Source: a bacterium (lineage in GTDB: Bacteria > UBP6 > UBA1177). Taken from it: a DNA stretch of 64,000 nt. Position numbers and translations under genes: made by a program. Shown here piece by piece: positions 5,649 to 56,565 of the stretch (position 1 is the stretch's first letter; each line of letters starts with the position of its first letter). The stretch is from contig JAFQZM010000013.1 in assembly GCA_017405875.1 (NCBI GenBank), positions 1,709-65,708 on the forward strand, given 5' to 3'. Under the pieces are notes generated by a model, which saw nothing but the letters and a program-made list of their open reading frames with translations, searched no databases and was not told the DNA's origin.

Positions 5649-7046
5649 ATGGAAAATCAGAATATTGAATACAAGCAGTCTTGGCGTGACGAATATCTCA
5701 AATGGGTCTGCGCCTTTGCAAATACAGACGGAGGCAGGCTTTATATCGGTGTAAAGGATGACGGCACTGTCTGCGGCGTGGATGATGCACACAAACTGAG
5801 CGAAGATATTCCGAATAAAATCCGTAATTCCATGGGTCTGATCTGCGCTGTCAATCTGCTTTCCGAGAACGGTCTTGATTATTTTGAAATCGTTATCGAA
5901 AAATATCCGTTTCCTGTAAGTTATCACGGCAGATATTACAAGCGCACAGGCTCTACGATTCAGGAAGTAAGCGGTATCGAGCTGGATAAAATGATTCTGG
6001 GAGTCCAGGGCCGCACATGGGATTCGGTTCCGGTTCCGCATATTTCGGTTGCAGATCTGGAAAATGACGCGATCAGACTTTTCAAGAAAAAGGCTAAAGA
6101 ATCGGGTCGTCTTGATGACGAGGCTTTAGATGTGACAAACGAAACTCTCATTCAGAATCTGCACATTACGGAAGGTCACTACTTGACCCGTGCCTGTATG
6201 CTTGCGTTCCATCCCGACCCTGAAAGATGGGTAACAGGCGCATATATCAAAGTCGCCTATTTTGAAAATGATGCAGACATTCTCTATCAGGATGAAATTC
6301 ACGGCCCGCTGATTCTTCAGGTCGAAAAAACAATGGAGCTGATTTATACAAAGTATATGAAAGCTCTCATTTCCTATGATGACCTCTACAGAAAGGAAAC
6401 CTTTTTCTTCCCGAAATCGGCGTTTCGTGAGCTGCTTCTGAATGCCGTGATCCACAAAGATTATCTTTCCACCACGCCGATTCAGATCCGTATTTACAAA
6501 GACAAAATCCGTCTCTGGAACGACGGAGCGCTTCCCAAAGAAGTTCCGGTCGAGGATTTGTTTAAGGAACACGTTTCAAAACCGTGCAATCCGAACCTTG
6601 CGAATGTCTTCTTCAAATGCGGCATGATTGAAAGCTGGGCTCGCGGCTTCAACAAAATTACAAGATACTGCGAAGAGGAAAACGCAAAACTACCGGTAAT
6701 CGACCTTTCTCTCGGCGGTGTAACTGCCCGCTGCTATGCGTCGGATGTCTATCTGGCACTGATGAATGAGTATGAAAATGCAGAAAAGTTCACAGAAAAT
6801 GACCAGAAAACTGTGGAAAAGACAGAAAAAGTGCCCAAAAGGTGCCCAAAAAGTGCCCAAAAGACATATCTTGCTATTGTAAAAAATCCCAACGCAACTA
6901 TCGAAGAATTAAGCAAAGAACTTGGGATATCTGAACGAGCTGTAAAAAAACATCAAAAATTACTCAAGGATGCAAATTTGATAACACGTCTGGAAGGAAG
7001 AAAATCTGGTTATTGGGAGATTGTGCAGGGGGAAGAGAATGAGTAA
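5649..7046 (+). CDS. AlbA_2/Schlafen-like putative DNA-binding domain protein with a C-terminal HATPase_c_4-like region and a winged-HTH (RecG-like transcriptional regulator family commonly embedded in Type I RM loci)
   Basis: N-terminus EYKQSWRDEYLKWVCAFANTDGGRLYIGVKDDGTVCGV is the AlbA_2 'divergent AAA' signature. C-terminal HTH (IEELSKELGISERAVKKHQKLL). Sits between hsdM and hsdS. Contains an in-frame 11 bp triplet repeat near its 3' end. Confidence 0.75.
   Translation: MENQNIEYKQSWRDEYLKWVCAFANTDGGRLYIGVKDDGTVCGVDDAHKLSEDIPNKIRNSMGLICAVNLLSENGLDYFEIVIEKYPFPVSYHGRYYKRTGSTIQEVSGIELDKMILGVQGRTWDSVPVPHISVADLENDAIRLFKKKAKESGRLDDEALDVTNETLIQNLHITEGHYLTRACMLAFHPDPERWVTGAYIKVAYFENDADILYQDEIHGPLILQVEKTMELIYTKYMKALISYDDLYRKETFFFPKSAFRELLLNAVIHKDYLSTTPIQIRIYKDKIRLWNDGALPKEVPVEDLFKEHVSKPCNPNLANVFFKCGMIESWARGFNKITRYCEEENAKLPVIDLSLGGVTARCYASDVYLALMNEYENAEKFTENDQKTVEKTEKVPKRCPKSAQKTYLAIVKNPNATIEELSKELGISERAVKKHQKLLKDANLITRLEGRKSGYWEIVQGEENE
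6781..6862. repeat. Short-period motif array (AGTTCACAGAAAA, ACTGTGGAAAAG, 3x GTGCCCAAAAR) inside the 3' part of the AlbA_2-like CDS
   Basis: Read directly; same motif repertoire as the arrays at 7058-7280 and 10978-11200. Translated in-frame as KTVEKTEKVPKRCPKSAQK. Confidence 0.6.
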
Positions 7047-40154: not shown

Positions 40155-41362
40155 AAATTCTTTTTATAAATACTGCAGATATTACCGGTGGAGCAGCACT
40201 GCTTGCCGACAGTCTGGCGGAATCTCTTTCCAGCAGATACGGTGTTGAAACATCGTTTCTGGTTTCAGAAAAATTTTCCAATAAAAAAAATGTCATTCAG
40301 ACCAGATCAAAACCTCTTTGGTTTATGGAAAAATGTTTTGACAAGTTTTTGAATTTATTCGGTTTTCAATATTGTTTTATACCGTTGTCATCGAATAAAA
40401 TCTTGAAAGAAGCTAAAAAAACCGCTCCCGATATCATTCATATTCACAATATTCATGGTGGATATTTTCAAACAAATTTACTACCCAAACTTGCCGAAAT
40501 TGCTCCCATCGTCTGGACTTTTCATGACATGTTCCCGATAACTGGTCACTGTACACACTCTTTTGAGTGCGAAAAGTGGAAAACCGGTTGCGGAAACTGC
40601 AAAAGATTGGATATTTATCCTTCAATCAAAAAAGACAGAACAAACGCTCTTTGGAATTACAAAAATAAAGTCTTCAACTCTGCTGATTTTACGATCGTTA
40701 CCCCTTCACTCTGGCTGAAAAAATGCGTTGAGCAGAGTTTTTTGAAAAATAAGGATATCCGCCTCATCTATAACGGAATTGATTTGGAAACCTTCAAAAG
40801 AACAGATAAACAGGAAGCAAGAAAAGCACTTAAACTGCCTGAAAATAAAAAAATTATCCTTTTTTCCGCAAACGGCGGAATCAAGAATCCATTCAAGGGC
40901 GGAAAATTTGTTTTCCAAGCTTTTGAAAAATTGAAAAACCGTAGTGATATTTTGTTCTTAAATATTGGCGGAGACAGCAATCAAACTTCTGAAAACTGGC
41001 TTGATTTCGGATACGTCAAAGAAACAAAAACCATGGCGATGCTTTATTCCGCAGCAGATGTTTATTTTTTTCCGACTTTGGCTGAGACTTTCGGAATGAC
41101 CATTGTCGAAGCAATGTCGTGCGGGCTCCCAGTTGTAACTTTTGAAACAGGCGGAGTCCCCGAAATAGTTGAGAACAATAAAACCGGATTCGTTGTTGAA
41201 TACAAAAACGGAGAAATGCTTACATCCGCACTCGAAAAACTTCTTGATGATGACAGTTTAAGAGAAAAAATGTCAGAAAATACGGTTGAAGCAGGCAAAA
41301 AATTCTCTTCAGAAAGAATGACTACAGAATATTTGCGGCTTTACGATGAACTTTTAAAATGA
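40151..41362 (+). CDS. GT4-family (GT-B) glycosyltransferase (paralog of 36296-37510)
   Basis: Long stretches >90% nt-identical to 36296-37510 (e.g. CTCTGGCTGAAAAAATG.GT.GAGCAGAGTTTTTTGAAAAATAAGGATATCCGCCT). Confidence 0.9.
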   Translation: MKILFINTADITGGAALLADSLAESLSSRYGVETSFLVSEKFSNKKNVIQTRSKPLWFMEKCFDKFLNLFGFQYCFIPLSSNKILKEAKKTAPDIIHIHNIHGGYFQTNLLPKLAEIAPIVWTFHDMFPITGHCTHSFECEKWKTGCGNCKRLDIYPSIKKDRTNALWNYKNKVFNSADFTIVTPSLWLKKCVEQSFLKNKDIRLIYNGIDLETFKRTDKQEARKALKLPENKKIILFSANGGIKNPFKGGKFVFQAFEKLKNRSDILFLNIGGDSNQTSENWLDFGYVKETKTMAMLYSAADVYFFPTLAETFGMTIVEAMSCGLPVVTFETGGVPEIVENNKTGFVVEYKNGEMLTSALEKLLDDDSLREKMSENTVEAGKKFSSERMTTEYLRLYDELLK

Positions 41363-42582
41363 ATACCGAAACAAAAGAACTGAAATTTTTTTATATCGGA
41401 TCTTTTCTGATTTCTTTACTATCCTCATATTTTATCTGGCTCCAAACATCAAAATACGGAGTTGATTTATCTCCTGACTCAATTGTTTATATGAAATGGG
41501 CTCAAAATATTTTAGATAATGGTTTGGGTTTTATTATAAGCAACAACGATGCTAAATGGCCTCCTTTGTATCCGCTTATAATTGCTGTTTTTTCAAAAAT
41601 ATCCCATGCTGACATTGTATCTGTTGCAAGACACTTCAGTTGTTGCTTGATATTTTTCACCTGTTTTTTATTAACATTATTATTGAAAAAATTATCAGGG
41701 AAACGATTTGTTTCTGCTATAGCATTTGGACTATTTATACCTTTTTCTATACCGCTTAATCTTGTCTATTCTTTTGCTTGGAGCGAACCTTTATTTATTT
41801 TTCTTTTAATACTTATTGCCTTTTCTATTGAAAAAACGACCTATAGCCGGCTAGTTCTATGCGGTTTTCTAAGTGCATCAGCAATACTTACCAGATATGC
41901 AGGGGTCACAATAGTTCCGGCAGTATGTTTGCTAATTTTCATTCAAAAAAGCAGCTTGACAGACAAAATAAAAAAATGTTTTTGTTATGCAATAATTCCC
42001 ACATTAATTTACATAACCTATATTTTTAGAAATTACTATTTTACAAAAACATTAATGGGACCGAGAGTCGCCTCAAGCACCGGATTAATTTTAAATGCCA
42101 CAAGAGCCTGTGCAACAATTGCTCTTTGGTTTTCAGGCAAAAATTTTTTTGTAGCCACGCTTTTTATTTTGATTTTTATTATAGTTATTTTAAATCACAA
42201 AAAACAGATCCCATCATACTTTGTTAAATGTTCAAGCATAGCGATTTTTTCGATAAGTTTTTTGGTAATTTATTTCATTTTTATTGTAATATCTTCAACA
42301 ACCACTGCTTATGATCCAATAGATGTCAGACTTATGTCACCTGCATTCCCATTTATACTAATCACATTATTTTCAGCATTTGTTTCGATGGATTTGTTAC
42401 AGCAAAAAACAAAATTTTATTACGCTGGACTCTTACTATATTTATTTCTAATATCAATATCTGTCGTAACAACCATAGAAGATTTAGAATATAGAAAAAA
42501 CCACGGAACATACGGATATAATTCTGTTTCCTGGCAAGAAAACAAACTTATCCTATATTTATTCAGTCTTCGGACCCAGTAA
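41359..42582 (+). CDS. Polytopic membrane protein, GT-C (GT39/83 ArnT/PMT-like) candidate
   Basis: 407 aa with ~11 TM helices and an N-proximal loop ...DAKWPPLYPL... reminiscent of the ArnT/PMT family. Confidence 0.45.
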   Translation: MNTETKELKFFYIGSFLISLLSSYFIWLQTSKYGVDLSPDSIVYMKWAQNILDNGLGFIISNNDAKWPPLYPLIIAVFSKISHADIVSVARHFSCCLIFFTCFLLTLLLKKLSGKRFVSAIAFGLFIPFSIPLNLVYSFAWSEPLFIFLLILIAFSIEKTTYSRLVLCGFLSASAILTRYAGVTIVPAVCLLIFIQKSSLTDKIKKCFCYAIIPTLIYITYIFRNYYFTKTLMGPRVASSTGLILNATRACATIALWFSGKNFFVATLFILIFIIVILNHKKQIPSYFVKCSSIAIFSISFLVIYFIFIVISSTTTAYDPIDVRLMSPAFPFILITLFSAFVSMDLLQQKTKFYYAGLLLYLFLISISVVTTIEDLEYRKNHGTYGYNSVSWQENKLILYLFSLRTQ

Positions 42583-42882: not shown

Positions 42883-43808
42883 TTACAGATTCGATTCCGA
42901 CTCTTCTTCACGGCTCACTACCGAGCATCTTTTTTTGACCAACTCAAAAAACGGTTCCGTCAGATCTTCCAAAAAATACTCAACAAACTCACGGTCTATT
43001 TTTTTTGCAACCTCGACACTCCGTTCGATCATTCTGCGTGCAGCTTTTTCATTCAAACCCAAATTTTCCTCTTTTTTCCGTTCAGAGTTAACGCCGTCTC
43101 CTCCGTATCCGCCGGATTGACGATCTGAACAGAAAGAAGATCGTAGGCGGCAGAAAGCACAAAAATCGAATCCCCGCTCTCGATCAGTGAAAAGTTTTTC
43201 AAATGCATATCGTTGTTGCCGATTATAAAACAAAAAAGCAAGCGGTTGAAAAAATCACTTTTGTCTGCAACCGGCATTGCTGAATATTTTGAAATAATTT
43301 TGCCGCACTGTTCATAAGAACCCTTGTATTTGTCTTCCGTCAGACGTTCACCGAGCTGACAGAAATCCTCCATGGCAATTTTTTCATCGGTTCGGTCTAT
43401 CCGTTTGGCAATATAGGCCAGGCTGCCGTCAGCCATTTGAAAAAGCGCGTTAGGCACTGTTTTGATCTTCCACAACTCAGCAAGTTTCATTGCAACGAAC
43501 TCGCTTTGAGGCAGCTTCTGAAACTCGCTGCTTTCCGGTTTCAAAATGTAGCCTGCAGGATACCCCACAAGAGTAAGACGCGATCTTCCTGCCGAAGATT
43601 CAAGGTGAAGAGAGAGCTTCTTTTGCACTCCGGCGACCGTTTTACCGATTTTTACCGATCTTTCAGCGAGATCTTCAAGATTTTCCTTTTTGAGTTCGAT
43701 AGCCGGTAGCTCTTTTGTACCGAAAAATCTTTTGATGCAGCTCAAATGATAATGCGAATTCGTATCCTCAAGTAGTTTTCCGCAACAAAGGCAACGGTTC
43801 TTATTCAT
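42883..43808 (-). pseudogene. HipT/HipA-like Ser/Thr kinase toxin lacking the HipA N-subdomain; reading frame interrupted in an A6/T6 homopolymer near 43072-43090
   Basis: Frame 1 (43053-43808): MNKNRCLCCGKLLED... with the HipA_C catalytic core CFIIGNNDMHLKNFSLIESGDSIFVLSAAYDLLS...LTLNGKKRK. The C-terminal remainder continues in another frame (ORF 42883-43233: ...NLGLNEKAARRMIERSVEVAKK...). Strong RBS CGGAGGGAAAAC. Confidence 0.55.
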
Positions 43809-44145
43809 GTTTTCCCTCCGTATTTTCCGGGACAACGCTAACCGCACCGATGCAGTCCCTGCAGGCCGCAAGAAGGATCCCCATCCGGTCACGAGTATCA
43901 AGTTTCCAGCTTTTCACAGTAACCTCCAAAAGCCAGCCCTCGGGAATAAGCCCGTCGAAAAAAGGAAAAAGCGTCTTTGAAAAATAAGCCTCCTCTCTAA
44001 GCGGAAGAGTCAGACTGACAGCGTGAGATCGCGGACTTTCAAGGAATTTTTTATCGTAGACGAACTCATATCCCCTCTCTGTCTCCGAGATCACACCCGC
44101 TTTTTTATCCTTGAAAAAAACTGTTCCGCGACGAAATTCACTCAT
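43801..44145 (-). CDS. HipS-like protein (stand-alone homolog of the HipA N-terminal subdomain)
   Basis: 114 aa: MSEFRRGTVFFKDKKAGVISETERGYEFVYDKKF...SLTLPL...FFDGLIPEGW parallels the HipA N-terminus (...FKYAPEWL...LSLSLPL...FFDNLLPD). Overlaps the hipB-like stop (ATGA) and the kinase start. Confidence 0.6.
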   Translation of the reverse strand: MSEFRRGTVFFKDKKAGVISETERGYEFVYDKKFLESPRSHAVSLTLPLREEAYFSKTLFPFFDGLIPEGWLLEVTVKSWKLDTRDRMGILLAACRDCIGAVSVVPENTEGKHE

Positions 44146-44366
44146 TTTTTATCTTCCTCTTCATTTTTCCGTTCGATCCTGACCACACCGAGGCAGCAGC
44201 CGAACATCTCCAGCGCCTGGTTGACTTTATCCGTGCGGCAGCTCTTTTTCCCTTGTTCAAGCTCACGGACAAAGCGCAGCCCCAAGCCCGAACGCAGAGC
44301 AAATTCCTCTTGTGTCAGTCCCGCCTCCTTTCTTTTTCTTTTGAGAAATTCCGAAACCCTTTCCAT
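44142..44366 (-). CDS. HipB-like XRE-family HTH antitoxin/repressor
   Basis: 74 aa; LKRKRKEAGLTQEEFALRSGLGLRFVRELEQGKK is a classic XRE HTH. First gene of a three-gene operon. Confidence 0.7.
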   Translation of the reverse strand: MERVSEFLKRKRKEAGLTQEEFALRSGLGLRFVRELEQGKKSCRTDKVNQALEMFGCCLGVVRIERKNEEEDKK

Positions 44367-44380
44367 TGCACGCCTCTAAC

Positions 44381-44474
44381 ACCCTATCGGGTATAAACTC
44401 ATTAAAAAATATACTTCAACACCCTTTCGGGTATAAAACAGCAACGAAACACATAAATTATACCCTAAAAGGTA
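44381..44474. promoter_or_regulatory. Three palindromic candidate operator sites (ACCCTATCGGGTA, ACCCTTTCGGGTA, TACCCTAAAAGGTA) spaced ~40 bp apart, upstream of the hipB-like gene
   Basis: Read directly; TACCC-N4-GGGTA dyads at 4-helical-turn phasing, analogous to HipB operator arrays. Confidence 0.45.
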
Positions 44475-44505
44475 TTATTTGCAACTATTATTTCCAGATA
44501 TCAGA

Positions 44506-45810: not shown

Positions 45811-47172
45811 TCACCCATTCAAAACATCCGAATCGATTTTGTATATCATTTTTTCATCAATGGAAACGTTTTTGACAAACATCATCATGTAGACCGGCAG
45901 ATAAGTTATTTTGCCGCGCTGCTCCACGTTGCCGTTGTGAAAGACAAAAGCGTTTCTGATGCCGTAATCTTCATTGTTGCAGACATTGCTCAAAGCCGCG
46001 TGTTTCGCGTAATCCTTGCCCGATTTTATCTCGACCGGAACGACTTCACCGTTATGTTCTATCACAAAATCAAGCTCGCCCTGCTTTTTGCTGTTGAAAT
46101 AAAAGAGGTTGAAGCCGTGCGCCTTCAGCTCCTGCGCCGCCGCGTTCTCATAAACAGAACCGAAGTTTATGTCTGCTTCATTGTTAAGGATTTTCAGTTG
46201 TATCCCGTCCATGTACATGCTTGCAAGAAGCCCGACATCCGCTAAAAAAAGTTTGAACAGGTTCGTGGTTTTTGAAAGAAGGAGAGGGATCTTAGGCTCG
46301 CTCACGCAAAAAACAGGAAGTGCGACTCCCGCATCCTTAAGCCATACAAAGCTATTCTCGAATCTTGAAAAACGTTGGTTTTCATTAAGATTTTTCAGCA
46401 GAAAACGCTTGTTTTTGGAATTGAGTTCGCTCGGGATCAGATCAAAAATGTCTTCTAAATAAAGTTTGTTCTGCGGATCGTATTTCGCGATATCCTTTTT
46501 ATAAAGCCTGATTATGCTTTTCTGCTCGCTTACGACATCGGCAATGTTGTTCGTATCGAGATACTTCTGCACCACCGCGGGCATGCCGCCGACAATTAGG
46601 TAGAGGCGGAAAAATTCCAAAAGTTTGTTGTGAACAAGCTGATCAACGGGGGTTTTCTTCTCAAATGAATCGCGTAAAGCGTCAAAAACCCGTTTCGAAA
46701 CGCAGTTAGCAGTCAAAAATTCCTCGAAATCGAGCGGGAACATCTCTTCCACATCCATATAACCGACAGGAACTGAACGGATATCCTTCAGATCGACACC
46801 GAGCAGAGAACCGCTCATAATGTACTGGTAACTTCCCTCTTCAACTAAAAATTTTATGGCAGTCGCAATGTTTTTACATTCCTGAACTTCATCAAAAAAG
46901 ATAAAAGTCTCGTTTTTGACAAGCTCTTTTCCGGCAAAAACGGAAATCCGAAGCAGCATCTCGTCAACACTCGAAGCATTTTCAAAAAGAGATGCCGCCG
47001 CGGGATTTTCGATAAAGTTGATCCTGACATAATGCCGGTATTTTTTGGCGAACTGCTCAATAATAAAAGTTTTTCCGACCTGCCTTGCTCCAGTTATCAG
47101 GAGAGCTTTTTTCTCTTTTTTCTCGTAAAACCGCTCCAACCTTTTCGCTATTTTTCGCTCTAACATAGGCAC
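45811..47172 (-). CDS. AAA+ ATPase with C-terminal DUF4143 domain
   Basis: Walker A ALLITGARQVGKTF and Walker B IFFDEVQ; family layout AAA_14 + DUF4143. Confidence 0.8.
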   Translation of the reverse strand: MPMLERKIAKRLERFYEKKEKKALLITGARQVGKTFIIEQFAKKYRHYVRINFIENPAAASLFENASSVDEMLLRISVFAGKELVKNETFIFFDEVQECKNIATAIKFLVEEGSYQYIMSGSLLGVDLKDIRSVPVGYMDVEEMFPLDFEEFLTANCVSKRVFDALRDSFEKKTPVDQLVHNKLLEFFRLYLIVGGMPAVVQKYLDTNNIADVVSEQKSIIRLYKKDIAKYDPQNKLYLEDIFDLIPSELNSKNKRFLLKNLNENQRFSRFENSFVWLKDAGVALPVFCVSEPKIPLLLSKTTNLFKLFLADVGLLASMYMDGIQLKILNNEADINFGSVYENAAAQELKAHGFNLFYFNSKKQGELDFVIEHNGEVVPVEIKSGKDYAKHAALSNVCNNEDYGIRNAFVFHNGNVEQRGKITYLPVYMMMFVKNVSIDEKMIYKIDSDVLNG

Positions 47173-52566: not shown

Positions 52567-52638
52567 TGCTAACATTTTATCAAAAACTTGACTTTTAAGC
52601 CTATAATCGCTAATATATTGACGATTTTGAGGTGCAAA

Positions 52639-52914
52639 ATGATAGTGCTGAAAACTCCGCAGGAAATGGCGGTTGATGCCGCAAAACGCTTCAAGGAAAT
52701 GAGAAAAGCGAAAAAAATAACGATAAAAAAGTTGAGCGAAAATAGCGGCGTTCCCTATTCCACAATCAGACGTTTTGAAAGCAGCGGCGAAATATCGTTT
52801 CTTTCACTCGTTAAAATCGTTTCGACTGTCGGTGAAGATGAAGAGATCACAAACCTGTTTGCCAAGCGCATACCAGCATCAATAGAGGAGATCATCCGTG
52901 AAAACCGCAGATAG
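52639..52914 (+). CDS. hipB: HipB-like XRE HTH antitoxin (second hip locus)
   Basis: KKITIKKLSENSGVPYSTIRRFESSGEISFLSLVKIV; overlaps the downstream hipA start. Confidence 0.6.
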   Translation: MIVLKTPQEMAVDAAKRFKEMRKAKKITIKKLSENSGVPYSTIRRFESSGEISFLSLVKIVSTVGEDEEITNLFAKRIPASIEEIIRENRR

Positions 52915-54034
52915 AATTGAAGTTTTTTTGAACGGGAAAAAAGTCGGAACAATGGTTCCCTACCAGAAACGGCTGACCGCTTTTGAATATTCCGAGGAAT
53001 GGCTTCGGGACGGATTTTCCATAAGTCCTTTTTCGCTTCCGCTGCAGGCAGGTGTAAAAATCGCAAAGGTCGATCCCTTCGACGGAATTTTCGGGATATT
53101 CGCCGATTCGCTTCCTGACGGCTGGGGCAAATTGTTGGTCGACCGGATGCTCAGAAAAGCGGGAGAACGCCCTGAAGAAATCGATCCTTTTTCCCGCCTT
53201 TCCATTGTCGGAACATCAGGAACGGGAGCATTGGAATACAAACCTGTTTACAACTTGAAAACAAATGAACATATTGACGATCTCGACCGCCTTGCCGAAG
53301 AATGCCGGAAAATCCTGCAAACAGAAGATTCGGGCGACCTTGACACGCTTTTTGCGATGGGCGGTTCTTCCGGCGGAGCGAGACCGAAAGTGACAATTCG
53401 GCTGAACGGAGAAGAGTGGATCGTGAAATTCCCGTCGTCGGGCGATCCGGCAGATATCGGTTTTATGGAATACGAATACAACCTCTGTGCAAGAGACTGC
53501 GGCATTGATATTCCGGGAATCAGGCTTTTTCCGTCTGATTTATGTCCAGGATATTTCGGTTGCATTCGCTTTGACAGAGTGAAAACCCCGCTCGGTGAAA
53601 AAAAAATCCACACCGCTTCCGTTTCTGCGCTGCTCGAAACTTCCCACAGGATCCCTGCACTTGATTACTGCTCGCTGCTCTCTCTGACCTGGCAGCTCAC
53701 GAAGCGTGAAGATGAAGTTGAAAAAATGTTCACTCTCATGTGTTTCAATGTTTTTGCGCACAACAGAGACGACCACTCAAACAATTTTTCATTTGTTTAT
53801 GACGGCGGCTGGCGGCTCTCTCCAGCTTATGACCTGACTTATTCGAACTCTGTCGGCGGTGAGCATGCGACGACCGTTGCAGGAGAAGGAAAAAATCCCA
53901 CAATAAAGGATATTCTTGCTGTCGCGAAAAAAATCGGCATGAAAGAATCCCGTGCAAAGCAAATAGAGGAAAAGGTTAGTGAAACCGTGAATGAACGACT
54001 GTTTGGAATTATGAAAAAATCGAGGCTTTCATGA
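52898..54034 (+). CDS. hipA: HipA-family Ser/Thr kinase toxin (full length, with N-subdomain)
   Basis: N-terminus [19 protein letters not shown]...SLPLQAG...[10 protein letters not shown]; catalytic core [34 protein letters not shown]. Confidence 0.85.
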
Positions 54035-56565
54035 AACACTACATTGTTACCGGAATGAGCTGCGCAGCGTGTCAGGCGCGTGTTGAAAAGGCTGTATCAA
54101 AGGTGAGCGGCGTTGAGTCCGTAAGCGTGAGTCTGCTCACCAATTCGATGGGTGTCGAAGGTTCAGCCAGCGATGAAGCGGTCATCAAGGCGGTCGTTGA
54201 TGCGGGTTACGGCGCAAAACTCAAGGATGAAAATCGGGAAAACTCGGTTTTTGAGAGCGAAAAAGAGTTTTTAAAAGACCGCGAAACCCCAGTTCTTAAA
54301 AGGCGTCTTGTCATTTCGGCAGTTTTTCTACTTCTTCTCATGTATATCACGATGGGGTACAACATGCTGCACCTTCCCCTGCCCGCTTCTCTGCACGGAA
54401 ACTTCATCGTTCTCACTTTCTTGCAGATGGTGATCGCACTTATTGTGATGTTTGTAAACAGGAAATTTTTCACGAACGGCTTTTCTGCGCTTTTTCACAG
54501 ATCCCCGAATATGGATACTCTCGTCGCGCTCGGTTCCTCGGTCTCTTTCGGCTGGAGCCTTGCTGTAATCTGTGAAATGTTCACGCACGCAGAGAATATC
54601 GCAGAGCTTTATCACTCGAGCCTGTACTTTGAATCGGCAGCGATGATCCCGGCATTGATCACAGTCGGAAAGATGCTCGAAGCAATATCGAAAGGAAGAA
54701 CAACGAACGCGCTGAAAGGGCTCATCGAACTCGCTCCGGTGAAGGCAATCATCGTGAAAAACGGTGCCGAGATCGAGGTGAAAGCTGATGAAGTCAGGGT
54801 CGGAGACTTATTTATAGTCCGACCGGGTGAAAAGATCCCTGTCGACGGAGTCGTCGTTTCGGGAGAGAGTTCAGTTGACGAGTCGGCTCTGACGGGCGAA
54901 TCGATCCCCGTTGACAAAAATGTCGGCGAAAACGTGAGCGCGGCGACGATAAATCAGACCGGCTGCATTACCTGCAGAGCGACGCAAGTCGGCGAGGACA
55001 CCGCTCTGGCACGCATCATCCGACTTGTTTCGGATGCCGCTGCGACAAAGGCGCCTATTGCCCGGATAGCGGACAAAGTTTCGGCATATTTTGTTCCCGC
55101 CGTCATGATCATCGCCGTGATCGTATGCGCCGGCTGGCTCATCGCAGGTGAAACTTTGGCATTCGCGCTGGCGAGAGCGATATCGGTGCTCGTCATTTCG
55201 TGCCCGTGCGCTCTGGGGCTTGCTACACCCGTTGCGATAATGGTGGGAAACGGTGTCGGAGCAAAAAACGGTATCCTTTTCAAAAGCGGCGAAGCCTTGG
55301 AATCTGCAGGAAAAACTGCGATCGTTGCACTCGACAAAACGGGGACCATCACTTCGGGAGAGCCGAAAGTCACAGACATTCTGCCGGCTTCGGGGATCAC
55401 CGAAGAAGAACTTCTCAAAAAAGCCTCTTCTCTTGAGAAAAAAAGCGAGCATCCTTTGGCGAAAGCGATAGTCAGAAAGGCCGAAGAGATGAATCTGGAA
55501 GCGTTTGAAACAACAGATTTCCGCATCCTGCCGGGTAACGGAGTGGAAGCGAAACTCGAAGGCAGGCTCTTTCGCGGCGGCAGCGAAAAATATATAAGCG
55601 ATTTTCTCAAAGTGTCTGAAAACTTTACGAAAGCCGCATCAATTCTAGCTGAAGCAGGCAAAACGCCTCTTTATTTCTGTAAAAACGAAGAAATTCTCGG
55701 AATAATCGCGGTAGCCGACACGATAAAGCCCGATTCTGCAAAAGCGATCGGAGAACTGCACAAAATGGGGCTCAAAGTGATTATGCTCACCGGCGACAAC
55801 GAAAGAACGGCACGCGCAATAGGCAGAGAAGCGGGAGTTGACGAGATTATCGCGGGAGTCCTCCCCGAAGAAAAAGCGGCGGCAGTCGTTTTGATGCAGA
55901 AATACGGAAAAGTCGCATTCGTCGGTGACGGGATCAACGATTCACCCGCATTGATAAAGGCCGATACCGGCATCGCGATAGGCGCCGGGACCGACATCGC
56001 GATAAAGAGCGCCGACATTGTTCTGATGAACAGTTCGCTAACCGATGCCGCAGCAGCAATAAGGCTCAGCCGAAAAACCTTGAAAAACATTCACGAAAAC
56101 CTCTTCTGGGCGTTTTTCTACAATGTCGTCTGCATTCCTCTTGCAGCAGGACTTTTTGCTTGGAAAATGAACCCCATGATCGGAGCTGCGGCAATGAGCC
56201 TTTCAAGTTTCACAGTCTGCATGAACGCACTCAGACTAAATCTGTTCAAAATATACAACACAAAGCACGATAAACCTCTTAAAGTATTAGGTTTTTCAGC
56301 AACAGATATAAGTAAGGAAATTTCGGAAAACTTCAACAAAAAAAGGAGAAAAAAAATGAAAAGAACAGTAAAGATCGAAGGAATGATGTGCCCGCACTGC
56401 GAAGCGAGAGTAAAAAAAGTGCTCGAAGGACTTCCTTTCGTCACCTCTGCCGATGTCAGCCACGAAAAAGGCGAAGCAGTCCTTACCCTTTCAGGCGAAT
56501 TTGATGAAGCGGCAGTCCGCAAAGTTATTGAAGATAACGGATACAAAGTCGTTTCGGTAGGATAA
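54031..56565 (+). CDS. copA: Copper-translocating P1B-type ATPase with N- and C-terminal HMA metal-binding domains
   Basis: [12 protein letters not shown] (HMA), CPC motif ([11 protein letters not shown]), DKTGT phosphorylation site, [10 protein letters not shown], and a C-terminal [15 protein letters not shown] domain. Confidence 0.9.

What the first reader, a model, noticed from the sequence alone, without database searches (positions are those of the whole stretch)
42883..44474. Tripartite HipB-HipS-HipT-like toxin-antitoxin operon whose kinase is interrupted at a homopolymer, with phased palindromic operators
On the minus strand, an XRE HTH gene (44142-44366), a 114 aa protein that is clearly a stand-alone HipA N-subdomain (SLTLPL...FFDGLIPEGW), and a HipA-core kinase lacking that subdomain (43053-43808) overlap by 4 and 8 bp. 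This is the hipB-hipS-hipT order described for E. coli O127 HipBST, in which HipS is the antitoxin. The kinase frame breaks inside GGAAAAAAGAGGAAAA at ~43072-43090, and its last ~60 codons continue in another frame. That is either pseudogenisation, slippage-prone phase variation of a toxin, or an assembly error. Upstream are three TACCC-N4-GGGTA dyads at 40 bp spacing, candidate HipB operators. A canonical two-gene hipBA (52639-54034) lies 9 kb away, so the genome carries both architectures.
Basis: partly seen in the sequence, partly recalled or inferred. Interest (0 to 1): 0.6.

Follow-up and report, generated by a model that had tools for sequence, protein, structure and literature searches.

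The report
HipBST toxin-antitoxin operon with dead kinase
This is a three-gene HipB-HipS-HipT toxin-antitoxin operon of the already described Legionella-like type whose toxin kinase was recently killed by a real 34-bp deletion, not a homopolymer slip, so it is an ordinary decaying member of a known family.

Summary
On the minus strand an XRE HTH gene (74 aa), a stand-alone HipA-N-domain protein (114 aa) and a HipA-core kinase overlap by 4 and 8 bp, preceded by three TACCY-N4-RGGTR dyads 40-41 bp apart. A fused hipBA lies 9 kb away. All three proteins match Legionella pneumophila HipB/HipS/HipT best; the model of an intact orthologue superposes on HipT(Lp) at TM 0.87.

The reading of the frame break is wrong. 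Eight syntenic loci with intact 313-aa kinases show that the window lacks 34 bp. This removes 11-12 conserved codons and shifts the frame, so three confident C-terminal helices are lost. The exact truncated product occurs on at least 13 contigs from independent assemblies, so it is not an assembly error. On an identical haplotype a second null allele exists (A6 to A7, 34 bp present). No intact allele of this haplotype was found. The tail's dN/dS (~0.12) says the loss is recent.

The operator idea is strongly supported. Across 69 distant relatives the dyad is ~50-fold enriched upstream of hipB, always at 40-42 bp phasing. Three evenly spaced HipB operators are already shown for Legionella HipBST, with a different motif.

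Verdict: a new member of a known kind, pseudogenised. Low to moderate interest.

The parts
44479..44484 (-). Candidate -35 hexamer TTGCAA of the operon promoter
   Evidence: Best sigma-70-like match in the region, TTGCAA-16-TATAAT, 10 of 12. Conserved in orthologues L001-L008. This is a consensus match only; there is no transcript data.
44457..44462 (-). Candidate -10 hexamer TATAAT, overlapping the right arm of operator 1
44461..44474 (-). Operator dyad 1 (distal), TACCT-TTTA-GGGTA, lying in the -35/-10 spacer
   Evidence: Conserved in orthologues. Same motif and phasing as in 69 distant relatives.
44420..44433 (-). Operator dyad 2 (middle), TACCC-GAAA-GGGTG
   Evidence: It is 41 bp from dyad 1.
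44380..44393 (-). Operator dyad 3 (proximal), TACCC-GATA-GGGTG. It starts 27 nt upstream of the hipB ATG and ends 2 nt before the AGAGG ribosome-binding site (44373-44377).
   Evidence: It is 40 bp from dyad 2.
44142..44366 (-). hipB: 74-aa XRE-family HTH repressor, intact
   Evidence: HTH_3 E 2.1e-7. TIGR03070 couple_hipB E 2.3e-18, below the curated cutoff. Best solved relative is HipB(Lp) 8ezt, E 8.7e-5. GenBank MBQ3367624.1.
43801..44145 (-). hipS: 114-aa stand-alone HipA N-subdomain-1 homologue, the presumed antitoxin, intact. The Glu69/Trp71 wedge is in IPEGW.
   Evidence: PF13657 E 2.6e-25 and TIGR03071 E 8.8e-29. HipS(Lp) 7vkb_B E 2.4e-15, HI_0666 E 5e-13, E. coli O127 HipS E 7e-11, with PEGW aligned to Glu63/Trp65. 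GenBank MBQ3367623.1.
43053..43808 (-). hipT remnant: codons 1-246 of the kinase, then 5 out-of-frame codons and a stop (251 aa). It keeps the N-terminal Cys/His minidomain, the Gly-rich loop G-K-T57-V-A-G-V-Q-K-K, catalytic D200 and Mg-binding D223.
   Evidence: PF07804 E 2e-39, covering profile positions 3-179 of 213. Alignment with intact homologues. GenBank MBQ3367622.1.
43068..43070 (-). Junction of the 34-bp deletion. The lost sequence is GAAATCTTAAAAAAAGTGACTTTTTGCGGCTTGC or the equivalent shifted by one base. About 1 nt of microhomology.
   Evidence: DNA alignment with L001-L008 and with the sister allele in L103/L105.
42883..43068 (-). Orphaned 3' end of hipT in the ancestral frame (E-NLGLNEKAARRM...). 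It is not translated as part of the kinase. The ancestral stop codon is changed to GAG (42901-42903), so this frame runs 6 codons further.
   Evidence: dN/dS 0.13 and 0.11 against intact orthologues.
52588..54034 (+). Separate two-gene hipBA. The HTH gene ends at 52914, with an alternative start at 52639. The 378-aa HipA with fused N-subdomain spans 52898-54034.

Best explanation
What it is: a chromosomal tripartite HipBST toxin-antitoxin operon of the Legionella-like (HipBST-Lp) subclade, in an uncultured bacterium.

How the intact system works (inferred from homology):
- HipT is a HipA-type Ser/Thr kinase toxin. Its target is unknown for this subclade.
- HipS binds HipT and blocks its Gly-rich loop with the conserved Glu-x-Trp wedge.
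- A HipB dimer represses the operon by binding three TACCY-N4-RGGTR dyads set about four helical turns apart. In this lineage one dyad lies in the promoter spacer and two lie in the transcribed leader.

What happened here:
- hipT was inactivated recently by a genuine 34-bp deletion. It removes codons 247-258, most of the first of three C-terminal core helices, and shifts the frame.
- The 251-aa product therefore lacks about 20% of the fold and is most likely non-toxic.
- hipB, hipS, the promoter and the operators are intact. The locus now most likely expresses only an autoregulated repressor, an orphan antitoxin and a dead kinase stub.

Shown here: anatomy, homology, the deletion, its presence in many assemblies, and operator conservation.
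Inferred: DNA binding, neutralisation, loss of toxicity.
For: Architecture and domains:
- Gene order, overlaps and domain split.

Best solved relatives of all three proteins are Legionella HipBST components:
- HipS(Lp) E 2.4e-15.
- HipT(Lp) E 2.5e-43, against ~2e-3 for HipA.
- HipB(Lp) E 8.7e-5.
- The AlphaFold model of orthologue P0001 (pTM 0.87) gives TM 0.87 over 316 of 316 columns to 7vkc; E. coli HipT gives ~0.8 and HipA ~0.65.

The deletion:
- 34 bp are absent relative to eight syntenic loci that encode 313-aa kinases.
- The lost region is helices 251-260, 265-279 and 284-310, with pLDDT 94-98.
- Zhen 2022 (PMC9325769) says the six C-terminal helices form the conserved core shared with HipA.

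A real allele:
- The exact 251-aa product is on at least 13 contigs from megahit, scaffolded and Logan assemblies of different samples.
- It is also in GenBank from a MAG.

Recent:
- Tail dN/dS is 0.11-0.13 in the ancestral frame, against 0.09 for intact versus intact.

Specific to this lineage:
- All 80 genome relatives have kinase ORFs of at least 302 aa.

Operators:
- 130 sites in 25.5 kb upstream of hipB (5.1 per kb) against 41 in 400 kb of flanks (0.10 per kb).
- Spacings are only 40-42 bp, or 80-83 bp where a site is missed.
- Arms are conserved while inter-site DNA drifts in close orthologues.
- Precedent: Legionella HipB binds three evenly spaced operators by EMSA (PMC10653801).
Against: - No experiment shows that the truncated kinase is inactive. 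It keeps the Gly-rich loop, the catalytic Asp and the Mg-binding Asp.
- No read-level data were available, so within-sample allele frequencies are unknown.
- The promoter assignment is a consensus match only. In most distant relatives the best promoter wraps the proximal dyad, not the distal one.
- HipB binding to these dyads is untested.
- The target and toxicity of this clade's HipT are untested. Even for HipT(Lp) the target is unknown (PMC10653801).
Confidence: 0.85

Rival explanations
1. Homopolymer slippage or phase variation. The kinase is switched off and on by length changes of the A-run in GGAAAAAAG, so the toxin is a contingency gene.
For: - A sister allele with A7 instead of A6, 34 bp present, 249-aa product, exists on three contigs. 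Two are ungapped.
- Its haplotype has 0 mismatches to the window over 1.66 kb.
- Three scaffolded assemblies break exactly at this site, which suggests within-sample heterogeneity.
Against: - The window's own lesion is a 34-bp deletion, which slippage cannot reverse.
- No in-frame allele of this haplotype was found. It would be 319 aa, and none appeared in the 5.8-billion-protein search or among the 15 cluster members listed, of 34.
- A 6-7 nt tract is short for a contingency locus (own knowledge).
- Orthologues differ here: P0002-type loci have GGAAAGAAG, so the run is not conserved.
Confidence: 0.05
2. Assembly or sequencing artefact. The gene is intact in the organism.
For: The region is A/T-homopolymer rich, and three scaffolded contigs have gaps there.
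Against: - The same 34-bp-deleted sequence was recovered by three assembly pipelines from at least seven samples.
- A 34-bp loss is not a typical homopolymer error.
- Intact orthologues assemble without trouble through the same sequence.
Confidence: 0.02
3. The truncated kinase, alone or together with the downstream 49-aa ORF, keeps a function. It could be a still-active or attenuated toxin, a split kinase, or a HipS/HipB-binding decoy that tunes autoregulation.
For: - All catalytic motifs up to K246 are intact, and every family-invariant residue before the break is retained.
- The allele is common.
- Gene callers find a 49-aa ORF, MIERSV..., in the tail.
- Split hipT genes exist in Legionella (PMC10653801).
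Against: - The deletion removes the helix with the nearly invariant D-F, and the frameshift removes two more core helices.
- The Legionella split HipT pairs were non-toxic, alone or combined (PMC10653801).
- Further null lesions in the same lineage argue that the gene is not under constraint: A7, kinase E154*, and HipB Q38* on the deletion background.
Confidence: 0.08
4. Toxin loss was selected rather than neutral. Independent hipT null alleles swept because the active toxin was costly, and HipB-HipS is kept as an anti-addiction or immunity module against incoming hipBST copies.
For: - There are at least two, probably three, independent kinase-null lesions in one near-identical lineage: delta34, A7 and E154*. 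The haplotypes otherwise differ by only 0-3 SNPs per 1.66 kb.
- No intact allele was sampled.
- HipS is identical on 24 or more contigs.
Against: - One contig also carries HipB Q38*, which fits plain decay of the whole operon.
- Too little time has passed to measure constraint on hipB or hipS after the loss.
- The sampling is of metagenome contigs, not a population survey.
Confidence: 0.2

Closest known systems
HipBST of Legionella pneumophila (Lpg2368-2370; PDB 7vkb, 7vkc, 8ezr, 8ezt; Zhen 2022 PMC9325769; Lin 2023 PMC10653801)
   Same: - Order hipB-hipS-hipT.
- Sizes: HipB 74 aa here against 76, HipS 114 against 102, HipT 313 (intact orthologue) against 312-317.
- Best sequence match for all three proteins, and the best fold match (TM 0.87).
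- A single phospho-acceptor next to the Gly-rich loop.
- Three evenly spaced operators upstream of hipB.
- The subclade is already reported as widespread outside Gammaproteobacteria.
   Different: - Operator motif and geometry differ: 5-6-nt arms with a 4-nt spacer at 40-42 bp centre spacing here, against 18-nt sites with 6-nt arms and 53-bp gaps in Legionella.
- The Gly-loop triplet is T-V-A (family mostly T-psi-P) rather than S-V-Q.
- The N-terminal minidomain carries an invariant CxxC...HxxC cluster that the solved HipTs lack.
- Here hipT is truncated.
HipBST of E. coli O127:H6 (Vang Nielsen 2019 PMC6581861; Baerentsen 2023 PMC10627512; PDB 7ab3-5)
   Same: - Same three-gene logic.
- HipS Glu63/Trp65 wedge conserved as PEGW.
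- HipT has an N-terminal minidomain and lacks N-subdomain 1.
- HipB is an HTH repressor.
   Different: - Much more distant: HipT E ~1e-13, about 20% identity.
- E. coli HipT has the S-I-S double site and targets TrpS.
- E. coli HipB is longer, with an N-terminal extension.
Canonical HipBA (E. coli K-12, Shewanella oneidensis)
   Same: The kinase core fold and motifs. An HTH partner that binds phased palindromic operators.
   Different: In HipBA the N-subdomain 1 is fused to the kinase and HipB is the antitoxin. Such a fused version sits separately at 52588-54034 in this window.
Decayed or split hipT loci in Legionella (L. gormanii frameshift; L. pneumophila lpg2377-80; Lin 2023)
   Same: A hipBST operon whose kinase gene is broken while the upstream genes persist.
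   Different: Different position and type of lesion. Here the P-loop and catalytic motifs survive and the C-terminal helices are lost.

Membership tests
HipBST tripartite toxin-antitoxin system | Three co-directional, tightly coupled genes in the order hipB (HTH), hipS, hipT | tested here: met
   44142-44366, 43801-44145 and 43053-43808, all on the minus strand, with overlaps of 4 and 8 bp. 71 of 80 genome relatives show the same order; most of the rest sit at contig edges.
HipBST tripartite toxin-antitoxin system | HipS is a stand-alone protein of about 100 aa, homologous to HipA N-subdomain 1 | tested here: met
   PF13657 covers residues 9-104 of 114. Full-length matches to three solved HipS proteins, E 2.4e-15 to 7e-11, all better than to the HipA N-domain at 3e-8.
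HipBST tripartite toxin-antitoxin system | HipS carries the inhibitory Trp (E. coli Trp65), with Glu63, that wedges into the HipT Gly-rich-loop pocket | tested here: met
   IPEGW, with Glu69/Trp71, aligns to E. coli HipS P62-E63-G64-W65. PEGW is present in 77 of 77 family HipS proteins. The wedge function itself was not tested.
HipBST tripartite toxin-antitoxin system | HipT lacks N-subdomain 1 but has the Gly-rich loop, catalytic motif and Mg-binding motif, plus a Ser/Thr next to the loop | tested here: met
   GK-T57-VAGVQKK, GNND200MHLKN and AYD223LL are all present in the window ORF. There is no Couple_hipA hit in the kinase.
HipBST tripartite toxin-antitoxin system | A complete HipT kinase able to act as the toxin | tested here: not met
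   A 34-bp deletion plus frameshift removes residues 247 to the end, three core helices. The locus is therefore a HipBST member by descent but not a complete system.
HipBST tripartite toxin-antitoxin system | HipT toxicity is neutralised by HipS, not by HipB | not testable with these tools
   Needs expression assays.
HipBST tripartite toxin-antitoxin system | HipB is an HTH repressor that binds operators in the hipBST promoter | tested here: inconclusive
   The HTH domain is present and HipB(Lp) is its best solved relative. Conserved, phased dyads lie upstream. Binding itself is untested.
HipBST-Lp subclade (Lin 2023) | Closer to L. pneumophila HipBST than to E. coli HipBST in all components | tested here: met
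   HipT E 2.5e-43 to Lp against 9.5e-14 to E. coli. HipS 2.4e-15 against 7e-11. Among solved HipB proteins only HipB(Lp) is a hit. Fold TM 0.87 against ~0.8.
Canonical HipBA | Kinase with N-subdomain 1 fused in one polypeptide | tested here: not met
   In this operon the subdomain is a separate gene. The feature is met by the other locus at 52898-54034.
Phase-variable (contingency) gene | The frame is switched by a length change of a simple-sequence tract, with both ON and OFF lengths present in the population | tested here: not met
   The window's lesion is a 34-bp deletion. An A6/A7 polymorphism exists, but no ON allele of this haplotype was found.

The most novel reading that the evidence does not exclude
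Within one near-clonal gut-bacterial lineage, hipT has been knocked out independently two or three times: a 34-bp deletion and an A6-to-A7 slip within 10 nt of each other, plus a nonsense codon. hipS stays identical and no intact allele is seen. This would mean active selection against the toxin, or a mutational hot spot that serves as a one-way off switch, leaving HipB-HipS as a retained anti-addiction module. Alongside this, the whole HipBST-Lp-like clade shares an undescribed operator code (three TACCY-N4-RGGTA dyads at 41 bp) and a probable zinc-binding N-terminal minidomain in HipT.
Probability: 0.2. Interest if true: 0.45.

Novelty: new member of a known kind. Interest (0 to 1): 0.25.

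Why it matters
For annotation:
- The locus should be labelled hipB, hipS and a hipT pseudogene. GenBank currently has three generic names and a "HipA domain-containing protein" of 251 aa.

For the biology of these systems, modest leads:
- The Legionella-type HipBST subclade is very abundant in gut Bacillota, Treponema and Bacteroidales: at least 598 species genomes carry relatives.
- It has a uniform, easily testable operator architecture and a conserved Cys/His cluster in the kinase minidomain. Neither is mentioned in the HipBST papers I could search.
- The several null alleles on one haplotype are a small natural example of how toxin genes are lost while the antitoxin and repressor remain.

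None of this changes the current understanding of Hip systems.

Tried and rejected
- One-base repair of the A-runs. It restores a 308-aa frame but was rejected as the true history once homologues showed a missing 11-residue block and the DNA showed a 34-bp gap.
- Extra bases in L015, L017 and L018 at the break looked like insertions in the first alignment. They turned out to be scaffold N-runs.
- First pass on architecture gave 13 kinases with no HipS. This was an artefact of ORF starts extended upstream; corrected, the count is 71 of 80 BST.
- First dN/dS for the tail was off by one codon and meaningless. It was redone in register.
- NCBIfam gave no specific HipT or HipS equivalog, only a weak YjjJ hit.
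- PADLOC gave only weak hits to the candidate defence system PDC-M03. I did not pursue a defence role.
- Organism identity: cluster look-ups return only "[bacterium]" MAG names. The best genome-collection relative is 53% identical, so the source species was not recovered there.
- A literature search for experimental C-terminal truncations of HipA or HipT found nothing usable.
- Supplement search of Gerdes 2021 for Treponema or Clostridia HipT entries found nothing; the file was cut when stored.
- The Rfam scan found only a tRNA far from the locus.
- The deleted segment has no long flanking direct repeats, only ~1 nt of microhomology between GAGAAAT and GGAAAAT. It contains a 15-nt quasi-palindrome, AAAAAGT-G-ACTTTTT, which might favour slipped mispairing. 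That is inference only.
Full report
**1. What is in the sequence**

- 44142-44366: 74 aa.
- 43801-44145: 114 aa.
- 43808-43053: 251 aa from the ATG.

They overlap by 4 and 8 bp.

Domain assignments:
- The first is HTH_3 (E 2.1e-7).
- The second is a Couple_hipA domain and nothing else (E 2.6e-25, residues 9-104).
- The third is HipA_C (E 2e-39), covering only profile positions 3-179 of 213.
- NCBIfam adds TIGR03070 couple_hipB (below its cutoff) and TIGR03071 couple_hipA.

A different frame continues from about 43068 to a stop at 42883. It reads (E)NLGLNEKAARRMIERS....

**2. The frame break is a 34-bp deletion**

- A search with a one-base "repaired" protein found thousands of relatives, 305-320 aa long.
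- The closest are 87-92% identical by global alignment and 310-313 aa long. They carry an extra block, NLKKSDFLRLAE, between GKKR and NLGLNEK. This block includes a nearly invariant D-F.
- I fetched eight loci encoding these proteins. They are syntenic: a 429-aa amine-oxidase gene, then HTH-74, Couple_hipA-114 and a 313-aa kinase.
- The DNA alignment shows that the window lacks 34 bp between ...GGAAAAAAGA(G) and (G)GAAAATTT.
- So the lesion removes codons 247-258 and shifts the frame. It is not a change in A-run length.
- The ancestral stop codon (TAA or TAG in the orthologues) is GAG in the window, so the orphaned frame runs six codons longer.

**3. The allele is real, recurrent and recent**

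- The exact 251-aa product is encoded on at least 13 contigs. These come from different samples and from three assembly pipelines.
- It is also in GenBank from a MAG, as MBQ3367622.1. The neighbours are MBQ3367623.1 ("HipA N-terminal domain-containing protein") and MBQ3367624.1.
- Three scaffolded contigs have N-gaps exactly at the deletion site.
- A second allele has the 34 bp present but A7 instead of A6 in GGAAAAAAG. It gives ...GKKEKS* at 249 aa. It is on three contigs, two of them ungapped. Its haplotype has no mismatch to the window over 1.66 kb.
- The deletion allele has A6, so it cannot derive from the A7 allele in one step. The two are independent nulls of a recent intact ancestor.
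- A more diverged variant carries E154* in the kinase.
- One deletion-allele contig also has Q38* in HipB.
- No intact allele of this haplotype was found.
- dN/dS between the window and intact orthologues:

| Segment | dN/dS |
|---|---|
| hipB | 0.05-0.26 |
| hipS | 0.07-0.16 |
| Kinase codons 1-246 | 0.09-0.10 |
| Orphaned tail, ancestral frame | 0.11-0.13 |

- The intact-versus-intact tail gives 0.09. The tail has therefore had almost no time to drift.
- All 80 relatives from reference genomes have full-length kinase ORFs. The decay is specific to this lineage.

**4. What the deletion costs**

- An AlphaFold2 model of orthologue P0001 was built on a 55-sequence alignment. It has mean pLDDT 84 and pTM 0.87.
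- After residue 246 the model has three helices: 251-260, 265-279 and 284-310. Their pLDDT is 94-98.
- The deletion removes most of the first helix. The frameshift removes the other two.
- Zhen 2022 (PMC9325769) describes the six C-terminal helices as the part of HipT(Lp) that superposes almost perfectly on HipA.
- Loss of toxicity is therefore likely, but it is inferred. The Gly-rich loop, D200 and D223 are still encoded.

**5. Family membership**

- The 114-aa protein matches three solved HipS proteins over its full length:
  - HipS(Lp): E 2.4e-15.
  - H. influenzae HI_0666: E 5e-13.
  - E. coli O127 HipS: E 7e-11.
- These are all better than its match to the HipA N-domain (E 3e-8). IPEGW aligns with E. 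coli Glu63/Trp65, the wedge that Baerentsen 2023 showed to be essential.
- The kinase family matches HipT(Lp) at E 2.5e-43, E. coli HipT at E 1e-13 and HipA at about 1e-3.
- The model superposes on 7vkc with TM 0.87 over all 316 columns.
- Among solved structures, HipB matches HipB(Lp) best.
- Across 80 genome loci from Treponema, many Bacillota, Bacteroidales and Cloacimonadota, 71 have the B-S-T order.
- Family features are uniform:
  - PEGW in 77 of 77 HipS proteins.
  - The catalytic motif in 80 of 80 kinases.
  - A Gly-loop triplet of T-psi-P or T-psi-T in 73 of 80, the published T[IV][TP] group.
- Lin 2023 (PMC10653801) already defined the HipBST-Lp subclade and noted its wide distribution outside Gammaproteobacteria.
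- The target of HipT(Lp) is unknown; neither TrpS nor GltX rescues. No target can be assigned here.

**6. Operators**

- The three dyads are the only cluster of this motif in the window: 7 strand-hits against 0.86 expected, and 0 of 100 shuffles reach that number.
- An independent repeat finder gives spacings of 40 and 41 bp.
- In the eight close orthologues the arms are conserved while the DNA between them drifts. TTGCAA-16-TATAAT wraps dyad 1.
- In 69 distant relatives, TACCYNNNNRGGTA with at most one mismatch occurs 130 times in 25.5 kb upstream of hipB. It occurs 41 times in 400 kb of flanks, a roughly 50-fold enrichment.
- Every adjacent spacing is 40-42 bp, or 80-83 bp where a site is missed. 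25 loci have three sites and 21 have two.
- This is strong comparative evidence for a HipB operator array phased at about four helical turns.
- In most distant relatives the best consensus promoter (TTGACA-17-TAAAAT) wraps the proximal dyad. In the window's lineage it wraps the distal one. Which site sits in the promoter seems to vary, and this remains a consensus-level inference.
- Precedent: Legionella HipB binds three evenly spaced operators, with 6-nt arms and 53-bp gaps. That motif is absent from E. coli hipBST.

**7. The second locus**

- The HTH gene spans 52588/52639-52914.
- The 378-aa HipA spans 52898-54034. It has Couple_hipA (E 7.5e-19) and HipA_C (E 6.9e-43) fused in one protein.
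- This confirms that the window carries both architectures.

**8. Verdict**

The homopolymer, phase-variation and assembly-error readings of the break are wrong for this sequence.
- The locus is a recently pseudogenised member of a described subclade. It is of low to moderate interest.
- Three small leads remain: a family-wide operator code, a conserved Cys/His cluster in the HipT minidomain, and multiple independent toxin-null alleles on one haplotype.

Noticed in passing
window 43737-43793 (-), kinase codons 6-24; also L023-L102: The HipT N-terminal minidomain carries a C6-x-(C8)-C9 ... H21-x2-C24 cluster. C6, C9, H21 and C24 are invariant in 55 aligned homologues, and the cluster is present in 79 of 80 genome loci. 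E. coli HipT has YSTQGLKRLSGT where this family has YHLSCIKKFFGT, so the solved HipTs lack the ligands. It looks like a zinc knuckle. 'Zinc' and 'cysteine' do not occur in Gerdes 2021 or Zhen 2022.
   Followed up: partly
L103 3210-3260, L105 1771-1820, L104/L018 (equivalent to window ~43072-43077): A sister null allele on a haplotype identical to the window: the A-run is A7 instead of A6, the 34 bp are present, and the product is 249 aa (...GKKEKS*). It lies within 10 nt of the window's deletion junction.
   Followed up: yes
L015 (equivalent to window 43349) and L014/L021 (equivalent to window 44255): Further lesions in the same lineage. A G-to-T change gives E154* in the kinase, on a variant with 15 SNPs. 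A C-to-T change gives Q38* in HipB, on the deletion background.
   Followed up: partly
L015, L017, L018/L104 at the position equivalent to window ~43068: Three scaffolded metagenome assemblies have N-gaps exactly at the deletion site. In L018 the flank is duplicated on both sides of the gap. This looks like an assembly bubble caused by two alleles in one sample.
   Followed up: partly
window 42901-42903 (-): The ancestral hipT stop codon (TAA or TAG in orthologues) is GAG in this lineage. An intact allele would therefore be 319 aa rather than 313 aa. The change is shared by the delta34 and A7 alleles.
   Followed up: partly
L023-L102 upstream regions versus window 44457-44484: In 16 of 25 distant relatives with clean operator triplets, the best -35/-10 consensus (TTGACA-17-TAAAAT) wraps the proximal dyad. 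In the window and its close orthologues it wraps the distal dyad. The promoter appears to have moved within the operator array.
   Followed up: partly
L040 2593-3963 (Oscillospiraceae MAG JAZSEG010000013.1): One relative has a single 456-aa ORF that matches both HipS and the kinase. This may be a re-fused HipS-HipT, or a frameshift or assembly error that merged the two genes.
   Followed up: no
window 41359-42582 (+) versus L010, L011, L012, L013: The gene immediately downstream of the operon is a 407-aa multi-pass membrane protein with a weak PMT_2 hit, at the end of a glycosyltransferase cluster. In other contigs carrying the same delta34 allele it is replaced by a 488-aa gene. The polysaccharide locus next door is variable within the lineage.
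   Followed up: no
window 54031-56565 (+) and L001-L003 1218-3823: In the window an 844-aa heavy-metal P-type ATPase follows the fused hipBA directly, overlapping it by 4 bp. In the P0001-type orthologous loci the equivalent 842-aa ATPase sits next to the amine-oxidase-hipBST block. This suggests a rearrangement between the two hip loci.
   Followed up: no
window 45811-47172 (-); L005-L008 both flanks: AAA_14/DUF4143 ATPase genes flank the amine-oxidase-hipBST block: one copy in the window lineage and copies on both sides in the P0002-type loci.
   Followed up: no
L002 ~6735-6770 (the 34 bp absent from the window): The deleted segment contains a 15-nt quasi-palindrome, AAAAAGT-G-ACTTTTT, between the imperfect repeats GAGAAAT and GGAAAAT. 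This might have promoted the deletion by slipped mispairing.
   Followed up: no
window 43801-44145 and orthologue P0001: There are weak PADLOC hits to the candidate defence system PDC-M03: HipS-like to PDC-M03B (E 4e-5) and the kinase to PDC-M03A (E 9e-6). They hint that related split Hip kinases are catalogued as candidate anti-phage systems.
   Followed up: no
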